A stretch of DNA of 64,000 bases from the NCBI GenBank assembly GCA_951406725.2, contig OX597822.1:75268001-75332000 (forward strand), written 5' to 3'. Made by a program: the position numbers and the translations under genes. Source of the DNA: Octopus vulgaris. Its lineage: Eukaryota. Shown here piece after piece: positions 34,605-34,935 of the stretch; the stretch's first letter is position 1, and each line of letters starts with the position of its first letter. Under the pieces are notes generated by a model. That model had not been told where the DNA came from, made no database searches, and saw nothing but the letters and a program-made list of their open reading frames with translations.

Positions 34605-34935
34605 AACAATTGCAGCGTGGAAGGTGTTTGTGAGCCATTTAAGAGACACACAGGAGCCGTTCGATTCACTTCAACATTTGAGTTTGGTTTGTCAAAGATA
34701 TTTGCGTCGCTTTAAGACCGCGACCTGTTCACTGACAAAAATCCGTGCTGCAGTGAACAGGTCGCAGTCTTGAAGCGACGAAAATATTTTGACAAATTAA
34801 ACTTAGGTGTTGAAGTGATTCGAATGGCTTTTGAGTGTTTCTTGAGTGGCTTGCAAACACCTTCCACGCTGCAATTGTTTTCGTTTTTGCTCACGATCTC
34901 AGATCAAATCGCTTGCTATGCAGGTACATCTCCGT
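34605..34935 (+). mobile_element. Fold-back element (~128-bp arms, 16-nt loop) inside (AAT)n, carrying a variant HHR
   Basis: 34607-34734 versus 34751-34877 inverted; ~56-bp unique 3' tail. Confidence 0.85.

What the first reader, a model, noticed from the sequence alone, without database searches (positions are those of the whole stretch)
34605..34879. Genomic hairpin with a strand-specific G.U signature: possible ADAR editing retro-copied into DNA
Seen (hand alignment of the two ~128-bp arms): 18 substitutions + 1 indel. 14 of 15 transitions give G.U pairs on the + strand RNA (8 with G in the left arm, 6 in the right) and only 1 gives A.C; two-sided binomial about 0.001. Read as A-to-G, 13 of 14 sites have a 5' U or A and none a 5' G, matching ADAR neighbour preference. 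The other inverted repeats here (19167/19514, 60614) show no such skew. Inference: a dsRNA intermediate was hyper-edited, reverse-transcribed and inserted in (TAA)n. The alternative is selection on a + strand RNA structure. Either way it points to an RNA-level hairpin element, in a lineage known for heavy A-to-I editing.
Basis: partly seen in the sequence, partly recalled or inferred. Interest (0 to 1): 0.85.

Follow-up and report, generated by a model that had tools for sequence, protein, structure and literature searches.

The report
RNA edits fossilised in genomic hairpin
A jumping-gene hairpin in this animal genome differs from its otherwise identical twin by 15 A-to-G changes, all in the paired stem; these are likely RNA edits that a retrotransposon copied back into DNA, which would make RNA editing heritable here.

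Summary
In detail: 14 G.U, 1 A.C, 3 other mismatches and 1 indel. The hairpin is the fold-back 3' end of a Penelope-like retroelement with thousands of copies. Other fold-backs show no skew (52 G.U vs 60 A.C), so family-wide selection is out.

A twin locus on contig C27 shares the junction, private marks and downstream LINE fragment. All 15 substitutions between them are A (twin) to G (window), on one strand, inside the stem; 200 nt of tail and LINE fragment have none.

A targeted search found a second case: C7 against its twin C18, with 32 of 40 stem changes A>G and a same-strand LINE joined 3'. The pooled 5' context is U>A>C>G, as for ADAR.

Best reading: ADAR edited a hairpin RNA and a LINE reverse transcriptase wrote it into the germline. 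The class is rare (2 found). The window's true source and direction are unsettled, and no RNA was shown. Corrections: one of the 14 G.U pairs is C>T decay, and two further edits were missed.

The parts
32512..32648 (+). (AAT)n tract, left part of the microsatellite target
32649..34500 (+). Very young, 5'-truncated non-LTR retrotransposon with RT, zinc-binding motif and restriction-like endonuclease (R4/Dong-like label recalled, clade not tested); open frame 32649-34265 (538 aa), then 3' UTR
   Evidence: 1-12 substitutions against each of 24 other copies, closest 1 in 1852 nt
34500..34604 (+). (TAA)n tail or spacer 5' of the hairpin
34605..34733 (-). Left arm: inverted, tail-less copy of the Penelope-like element's 3' end; carries 9 of the 15 A>G changes on the + strand (34632, 34645, 34653, 34654, 34680, 34686, 34687, 34697, 34704)
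34734..34751 (.). Fold-back junction and terminal loop (loop about 34737-34747, 4 A, none changed)
34752..34879 (+). Right arm: sense copy of the element's 3' end; carries 6 of the 15 A>G changes (34772, 34806, 34807, 34844, 34846, 34853)
34880..34937 (+). About 58-nt optional 3' 'tail' of the Penelope-like element; outside the long stem, identical to the twin
34935..35006 (+). (TAA)24 tract, shared with the twin (length differs)
35007..35158 (+). Older 3'-end fragment of the same LINE family; 3' boundary of the segment shared with C27 and inferred priming end for reverse transcription
   Evidence: 3-4 differences in 83-84 nt from 24 young copies
35159..35358 (+). (TAA)n tract, right part of the microsatellite target

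Best explanation
The hairpin is a fold-back end of a Penelope-like retroelement whose 15 stem-confined A-to-G changes are likely ADAR edits made on a transcript and then likely copied into the germline genome by a LINE reverse transcriptase. Steps: (1) Shown: a Penelope-like insertion made an inverted arm plus sense arm plus tail in a (TAA)n tract next to a LINE 3' fragment, and it aged there (private marks shared by window and C27). (2) Inferred: read-through transcription on the + strand gave an RNA with a ~128-bp stem. (3) Inferred from the pattern: ADAR deaminated 15 of about 81 stem adenosines in both arms. (4) Inferred: a TAA-targeting LINE enzyme primed on the LINE 3' end at the RNA's 3' side and copied I as G, by 3' transduction from a source element or by a template switch with the young LINE now 5' of the hairpin. 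(5) Shown: the result is a G-bearing copy beside an A-bearing twin elsewhere. It is a mutational fossil with no evidence of function.
For: Window vs C27: 15 of 15 substitutions are A>G on one strand, in both arms. That is 15 of 81 stem A against 0 of 74 A in loop, tail and LINE fragment, p = 3.7e-5. The family majority has A at the 13 sites where it can be read. Independent second pair, C7 vs C18: 32 of 40 hairpin substitutions are A>G, against 1 of 16 in 1273 nt of shared flank and 0 in the 55-nt tail, p = 7e-21. Pooled 5' neighbour rates: U 17/25, A 22/75, C 5/38, G 2/28 (5' G depletion p = 0.006). 3' A is highest (26/76) with no 3' G excess. This matches the invertebrate hyper-editing motif in PMC5625713 (passages). 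Same-strand A>G in BOTH arms needs the whole hairpin in one template; arms made separately from sense RNA would give A>G in one arm and T>C in the other (inference). In both cases the shared segment ends 3' at a same-strand LINE: the LINE fragment here, and a 5'-truncated RT-bearing LINE in C7 that C18 lacks. The upstream LINE is about as young (1 in 1852 nt) as the duplication (0 non-A>G changes in 464 nt). Ordinary fold-backs show no skew.
Against: No clean parent for the window copy: C27 lacks 8 nt at the left end that the window and the family have, and only these two loci carry the composite. Either a third source is missing from the assembly, or the end was refilled, or the window is the older locus. 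No target-site duplication can be read inside microsatellites. The WA context is shared with DNA polymerase eta (PMC11817618, passages). The C7 pair also has 8 other hairpin changes and lies near an assembly gap with a 2-kb duplicate. No inosine or transcript of this locus was shown, and the G alleles were not confirmed in independent reads.
Confidence: 0.8

Rival explanations
1. In-place write-back: the window is the older locus, C27 is its 5'-truncated copy, and an ADAR-edited transcript later overwrote the window's own DNA by cDNA-templated conversion. Same editing enzyme, different landing site.
For: The window keeps the family's usual left end and C27 is 8 nt short, as a truncated daughter would be. 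No third locus was found. Such a route is proposed for somatic cells in PMC11817618 (passages).
Against: It needs a second rare event within a time too short for one ordinary substitution in 464 nt. In the C7/C18 pair the edited copy is the one with the new LINE junction.
Confidence: 0.1
2. DNA-level burst: an error-prone polymerase such as Pol eta, or a deaminase acting on DNA, made A>G at WA sites while copying through a DNA hairpin during a duplication between microsatellites.
For: 39 of 46 scored sites are in WA context. Both cases are tied to a duplication, and both segments are bounded by microsatellites.
Against: The changes stop at the stem boundary although the flanks are A-rich. 18-36% of stem A are hit, and in the two hairpins no A>T or A>C change is seen at all. 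Pol eta gives lower rates and a mixed spectrum (recalled, no call).
Confidence: 0.05
3. Sequencing or polishing artefact in hairpin DNA.
For: Mismatch clusters can be artefacts (PMC2873906, passages). C7 lies near an assembly gap.
Against: 56 other arm pairs in the same assembly are balanced. The unedited twins, one of them a near-perfect hairpin, are assembled without such changes. The neighbour order fits an enzyme.
Confidence: 0.04
4. Selection for G.U-tolerant + strand RNA structure, or plain C>T decay.
For: G.U skew can arise from C>T: L203 has 6 G.U and 0 A.C and its changes are mostly C>T, none A>G in the stem. One of the 14 pairs here is of that kind.
Against: The twin and family majority have A-T pairs at 13 of 14 sites. 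The family shows no skew (52 vs 60; 33 vs 49 in the position-sampled set). No time for selection (0 other changes).
Confidence: 0.01

Closest known systems
Penelope-like elements with C-terminal GIY-YIG endonuclease (Neptune/Nematis-type linker); PMC8557442 passages, PMC11167929 parts 1-2 of 4
   Same: Single ORF with RT then GIY-YIG about 1 kb upstream of the arm; inverted 5'-truncated copy; optional tail at one end; microsatellite targets.
   Different: Tail about 58 nt rather than 30-40; no hammerhead found. The fold-back itself is ordinary; the A>G burst and re-copying as a passenger are not part of the described cycle in the text I saw.
APOBEC 'DNA editing' fossils in LTR retrotransposons (PMC4866542, PMC2873906; passages)
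   Same: A one-off, strand-biased, context-biased mutation cluster fixed in a genomic retroelement copy and read against an unedited relative.
   Different: Those are G>A made on cDNA, reported for vertebrates and absent from 19 invertebrate genomes. This is A>G confined to an RNA duplex, in an invertebrate, on a non-LTR passenger.
ADAR hyper-editing of repeat hairpins in RNA (PMC5625713; passages)
   Same: Clustered A>G in inverted repeats; 5' G depletion and 3' A preference in invertebrates; octopus among the most edited.
   Different: There the edits are RNA-versus-DNA mismatches; here they are in the assembled DNA.
LINE 3' transduction and RNA/LINE chimeras (bioRxiv 10.1101/2025.02.02.635956; passages)
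   Same: Cellular RNA joined in the same orientation to a LINE 3' part, by template switch or read-through.
   Different: That preprint's main text has no occurrence of 'editing' or 'ADAR'. Here the passenger is an edited Penelope-like hairpin and the carriers are other LINE clades.
A>G hypermutated avian retroviral proviruses with inverted repeats (Hajjar and Linial 1995; recalled only, not retrieved)
   Same: As recalled: ADAR edits in both arms of an RNA inverted repeat fixed by reverse transcription.
   Different: As recalled: cell-culture retrovirus, not an inherited animal genome.

Membership tests
Penelope-like element (EN+) | Single ORF with RT and GIY-YIG endonuclease linked to the terminal repeat | tested here: met
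   963-aa frame with GIY-YIG at 853-943, E 2.6e-6 (RT motifs seen by eye, Pfam RT not hit). The arm lies about 1 kb 3' of the stop, same strand, in 4 of 4 ORF loci examined.
Penelope-like element (EN+) | Inverted 5'-truncated copy and optional tail at one end | tested here: met
   Tail-less arms end at reference 170-175 of 231 while tailed arms run to about 230; 56 further arm pairs.
Penelope-like element (EN+) | Insertion bias to microsatellites or AT-rich DNA | tested here: met
   Flanks are mostly (TA)n or (TAA)n; read by eye, not counted.
Penelope-like element (EN+) | Hammerhead ribozyme in the pseudo-LTR | tested here: inconclusive
   No hammerhead among Rfam hits in 4 ORF loci and no core-motif match in 5 loci; these loci may lack the true 5' end.
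Neptune/Nematis clades | CX2-5CxxC linker between RT and endonuclease | tested here: met
   C-x3-C-x2-C just before the GIY-YIG domain, read by eye.
Neptune/Nematis clades | RT phylogeny | not tested
   No tree was built; the clade name is tentative.
ADAR hyper-editing footprint | A>G only, on one strand, against the parent | tested here: met
   15 of 15 (window) and 32 of 40 (C7).
ADAR hyper-editing footprint | Confined to long duplex | tested here: met
   p = 3.7e-5 and 7e-21.
ADAR hyper-editing footprint | 5' neighbour U>A>C>G | tested here: met
   0.68, 0.29, 0.13, 0.07.
ADAR hyper-editing footprint | Inosine in the transcript; dependence on ADAR | not testable with these tools
   Only contigs of runs guessed to be RNA were available.
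LINE-mediated transduction or chimera | Same-strand LINE 3' part at the 3' boundary of the copied segment | tested here: met
   Window; C7.
LINE-mediated transduction or chimera | Target-site duplication | not testable with these tools
   Both ends lie in microsatellites.
LINE-mediated transduction or chimera | Identified source locus | tested here: inconclusive
   C18 fits as source of C7; C27 is 8 nt short for the window and no third locus was found.
APOBEC DNA editing | G>A cluster on the element's sense strand | tested here: not met
   Changes are A>G on one genomic strand in both oppositely oriented arms.
MITE or miRNA hairpin | Fixed symmetric ends; Rfam family match | tested here: not met
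   Junctions vary, one arm has a tail and single arms are common; best Rfam hit 40 bits against a cut-off of 100.
R4/Dong clade (neighbouring LINE) | RT, zinc-binding motif and restriction-like endonuclease, TAA target; clade by phylogeny | tested here: inconclusive
   Pfam RVT_1 and zf-RVT; endonuclease motif by eye; TAA tails in 24 of 24 copies; label recalled, no tree.

The most novel reading that the evidence does not exclude
LINEs in this heavily RNA-editing lineage write ADAR edits into the germline as a recurring class of 'edited retrocopies', and editing, by loosening the stem with I.U pairs, is what lets reverse transcriptase pass long hairpins. Genome-wide twin comparisons across all fold-back families would then give a fossil record of germline A-to-I editing and a heritable route from RNA editing to DNA sequence.
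Probability: 0.25. Interest if true: 0.9.

Novelty: new variant of a known kind. Interest (0 to 1): 0.74.

Why it matters
Whether A-to-I edits ever reach inherited DNA is usually argued from mutation spectra. Here two edited copies can be read base by base against unedited twins in one genome, with the changes ending at the stem boundary. If right, ADAR acts on germline or early-embryo RNA that LINEs can copy, and the ADAR counterpart of APOBEC's genomic fossils exists in an invertebrate. It also gives a simple screen (same-strand A>G in both arms, then find the twin by its junction) for any genome. The events are rare in this family and non-coding, so the effect on genome evolution may be small.

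Tried and rejected
Family-wide selection and C>T decay: rejected.

Editing of the element's own sense RNA during its insertion: rejected by inference, since it would put T>C, not A>G, in the inverted arm. Inherited subfamily alleles in the left arm: each of the seven left-arm G that can be read against the family occurs in 0-2 of about 100 position-sampled arms, and the twin has A.

Further edited copies: three genome-wide patterns forcing one G gave 22, 27 and 78 hits. Only the window and C7 carried clusters; one search missed the window because of its extra base, and also listed L196 with two adjacent G but 0 G.U. Of the 78 hits all matched strings were seen but 30 loci fetched. Among 79 fetched loci (45 arm pairs, some repeated), L203 (6:0) proved to be C>T decay and L259 was 5:6; L019, L051, L093, L094, L198, L204, L207 and L255 showed mixed changes.

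Third source locus: none.

Expression and independent confirmation: no RNA holder listed. Contigs of four runs mostly reflect the multi-copy family and no listed piece spans the stretch. One run guessed to be RNA shows a loose end with three A>G among five differences; I do not count this as evidence.

Rfam: only sub-threshold miRNA-like hits. Earlier findings: none returned. The retroviral precedent could not be retrieved.

Left open, not computed: whether the window and C7 share edited positions beyond chance, and the age of the LINE fragments flanking C27.

Full report
Setting. The window is G000:C9:75268001-75332000 in a 2.8-Gb, 227-contig animal assembly. I take it to be an octopus from size and repeat content; this is inference and recall, and no call names it. 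The region is non-coding and rich in microsatellites.

Observation. The arms 34605-34733 and 34752-34879 differ at 18 positions plus one indel: 14 G.U, 1 A.C and 3 others on the + strand; p = 0.00098. The + strand folds better than the - strand, -204.5 against -168.3 kcal/mol.

What the hairpin is. The arm is a high-copy repeat: a 20-mer from it has 6,816 exact matches, with 0 for the reversed control. Copies occur as single arms or as fold-backs with varied junctions; one arm carries a ~58-nt tail and the other stops at reference position 170-175 of 231. [quoted passage not shown] In 4 of 4 ORF loci examined the arm lies about 1 kb after the stop on the same strand. Inverted truncated copies, an optional tail and microsatellite targets are described for Penelope-like elements in PMC8557442 (passages) and PMC11167929 (parts 1-2 of 4). 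No hammerhead was found. The hairpin shape is therefore ordinary.

Is the skew a family trait? No. In 56 other arm pairs (4 with under 10 aligned bases) there are 52 G.U and 60 A.C, p = 0.51. In the 39 pairs from the position-ordered C1 sample there are 33 and 49, p = 0.10. That sample was 74 loci drawn from about 90 of the first 100 listed matches. Against the family, 13 of the 14 G.U sites are A>G on the + strand, and one is a CpG C>T (at 34772 the subfamily letter is A, confirmed by the twin).

The twin. A junction pattern gave 13 loci including the window. One of them, C27:31.566 Mb (L153), shares the junction, the private marks, the (TAA)n tract and the downstream LINE 3' fragment. All 15 substitutions between the two are A in C27 and G in the window, in 264 aligned hairpin bases; there are none in 57 tail and 143 LINE-fragment bases. 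That is 15 of 81 stem A against 0 of 74 outside, p = 3.7e-5. Two other marker patterns each return only these two loci. C27 lacks 8 nt at the left end that the window and the family have, so it is not a perfect parent.

A second case. Forcing one G in a degenerate pattern gave 22 hits, two of them multi-G: the window and C7:46.961 Mb. C7 has 31 G.U against 2 A.C. Its junction finds exactly one other locus, C18:66.558 Mb, which is unedited. Of 40 hairpin substitutions 32 are A>G; the shared 1273-nt flank has 16 mixed substitutions with one A>G, and the tail none; p = 7e-21. About 2.3 kb is shared. Its 3' boundary in C7 meets a 5'-truncated, same-strand RT-bearing LINE (RTE-like label recalled) that C18 lacks. 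Two further patterns (27 and 78 hits) recaptured C7, and the window where its extra base allowed, but found nothing new. The class is thus a few copies among thousands.

Signature. Pooled over both cases, the edited fraction by 5' neighbour is U 17/25, A 22/75, C 5/38, G 2/28; by 3' neighbour A 26/76, C 9/36, G 5/23, U 6/31. PMC5625713 (passages) reports 5' G depletion and 3' A preference for invertebrate hyper-editing, octopus included. WA context alone does not separate ADAR from Pol eta (PMC11817618, passages). Confinement to the stem, the 18-36% hit rate and the absence of any A>T or A>C in either hairpin do argue for ADAR; the Pol eta spectrum is recalled, not from a call.

Mechanism. Same-strand A>G in two oppositely oriented arms requires that the whole hairpin lay in one strand when it was changed, so the edits postdate the fold-back's own insertion (inference). 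In both cases the duplicated segment ends 3' at a LINE. The LINE upstream in the window is nearly new (1 substitution in 1852 nt to its closest copy; 1-12 across 24 copies). That matches the age of the duplication (0 other changes in 464 nt), while the passenger is older. The simplest account is read-through RNA, ADAR editing and LINE-primed reverse transcription, by 3' transduction from a source not in this assembly or by a template switch. Such chimeras are described for L1 in bioRxiv 10.1101/2025.02.02.635956 (passages). Active RTE and a Dong element are reported in octopus in PMC9115989 (passages). Shown: anatomy, twins, polarity, confinement and context. Inferred: transcription, the enzyme, the carrier and the direction. 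In-place conversion by edited cDNA remains possible (0.1).

Against and missing. No RNA holder was listed, and contigs from four runs neither confirm nor exclude the G alleles. No target-site duplication is readable. C7 lies near an assembly gap. G.U skew alone can mislead: L203 is C>T decay.

Novelty. Known neighbours are APOBEC G>A fossils in vertebrate LTR elements (PMC4866542, passages; PMC2873906, passages), RNA-level hyper-editing, and a recalled retroviral cell-culture case that I could not retrieve. Seven full-text searches of the held library (listings and abstract starts seen, plus passages of PMC5974252) showed no report of ADAR-edited retrocopies fixed in an animal genome with unedited twins. 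The library lacks most subscription papers and I read no supplements, so prior reports may exist.

Verdict: real, well supported and rare; a new variant of a known kind. Interest 0.74.

Noticed in passing
window 32649-34500: TAA-tailed LINE family is very young: 98.4-99.8% identity to 24 other copies, so probably recently active.
   Followed up: partly
G000 many loci, e.g. C15:42996003, C5:115842404, C17:6334330: A second Penelope-like family about 55% identical in RT has several 1310-1312 aa open frames and many equal-scoring copies, suggesting a very recent burst.
   Followed up: no
window 19167-19305 / 19514-19655: Inverted repeat of another family with a different repeat between the arms; 0 G.U and 5 A.C on +, i.e. 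a weak opposite-strand skew, with 7 transversion-type mismatches. Not polarised.
   Followed up: partly
L144, L146, L150, L152, L154: Five fold-backs share one junction and one allele but not their flanks, one with the tail on the other arm: recurrent microhomology switching or a re-mobilised fold-back master; no obvious editing.
   Followed up: no
L217+L218 positions 9842-11860 and 15984-17999 (C7:46.96 Mb): A 2-kb LINE segment is repeated at 99.85% across a run of N; possibly an assembly duplicate.
   Followed up: no
L158/L159 (C27:31.565-31.568 Mb): One (TAA)n array holds four nested insertions: two fragments of a second TAA-tailed LINE family, the hairpin and the first family's 3' fragment.
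   Followed up: partly
L073:1287-2108 (minus strand): A mariner-like transposase frame (label recalled) is inserted in the 3' UTR of a Penelope-like copy.
   Followed up: no
L081 (G000:C9:75346638), 14.6 kb beyond the window end: Another single-arm, tailed copy of the same family nearby.
   Followed up: no
window 21099-21422: Low-identity inverted match with 30 A.C and 6 G.U on +; overlaps (ACAT)n and (GTAT)n microsatellites, probably a composition effect.
   Followed up: no
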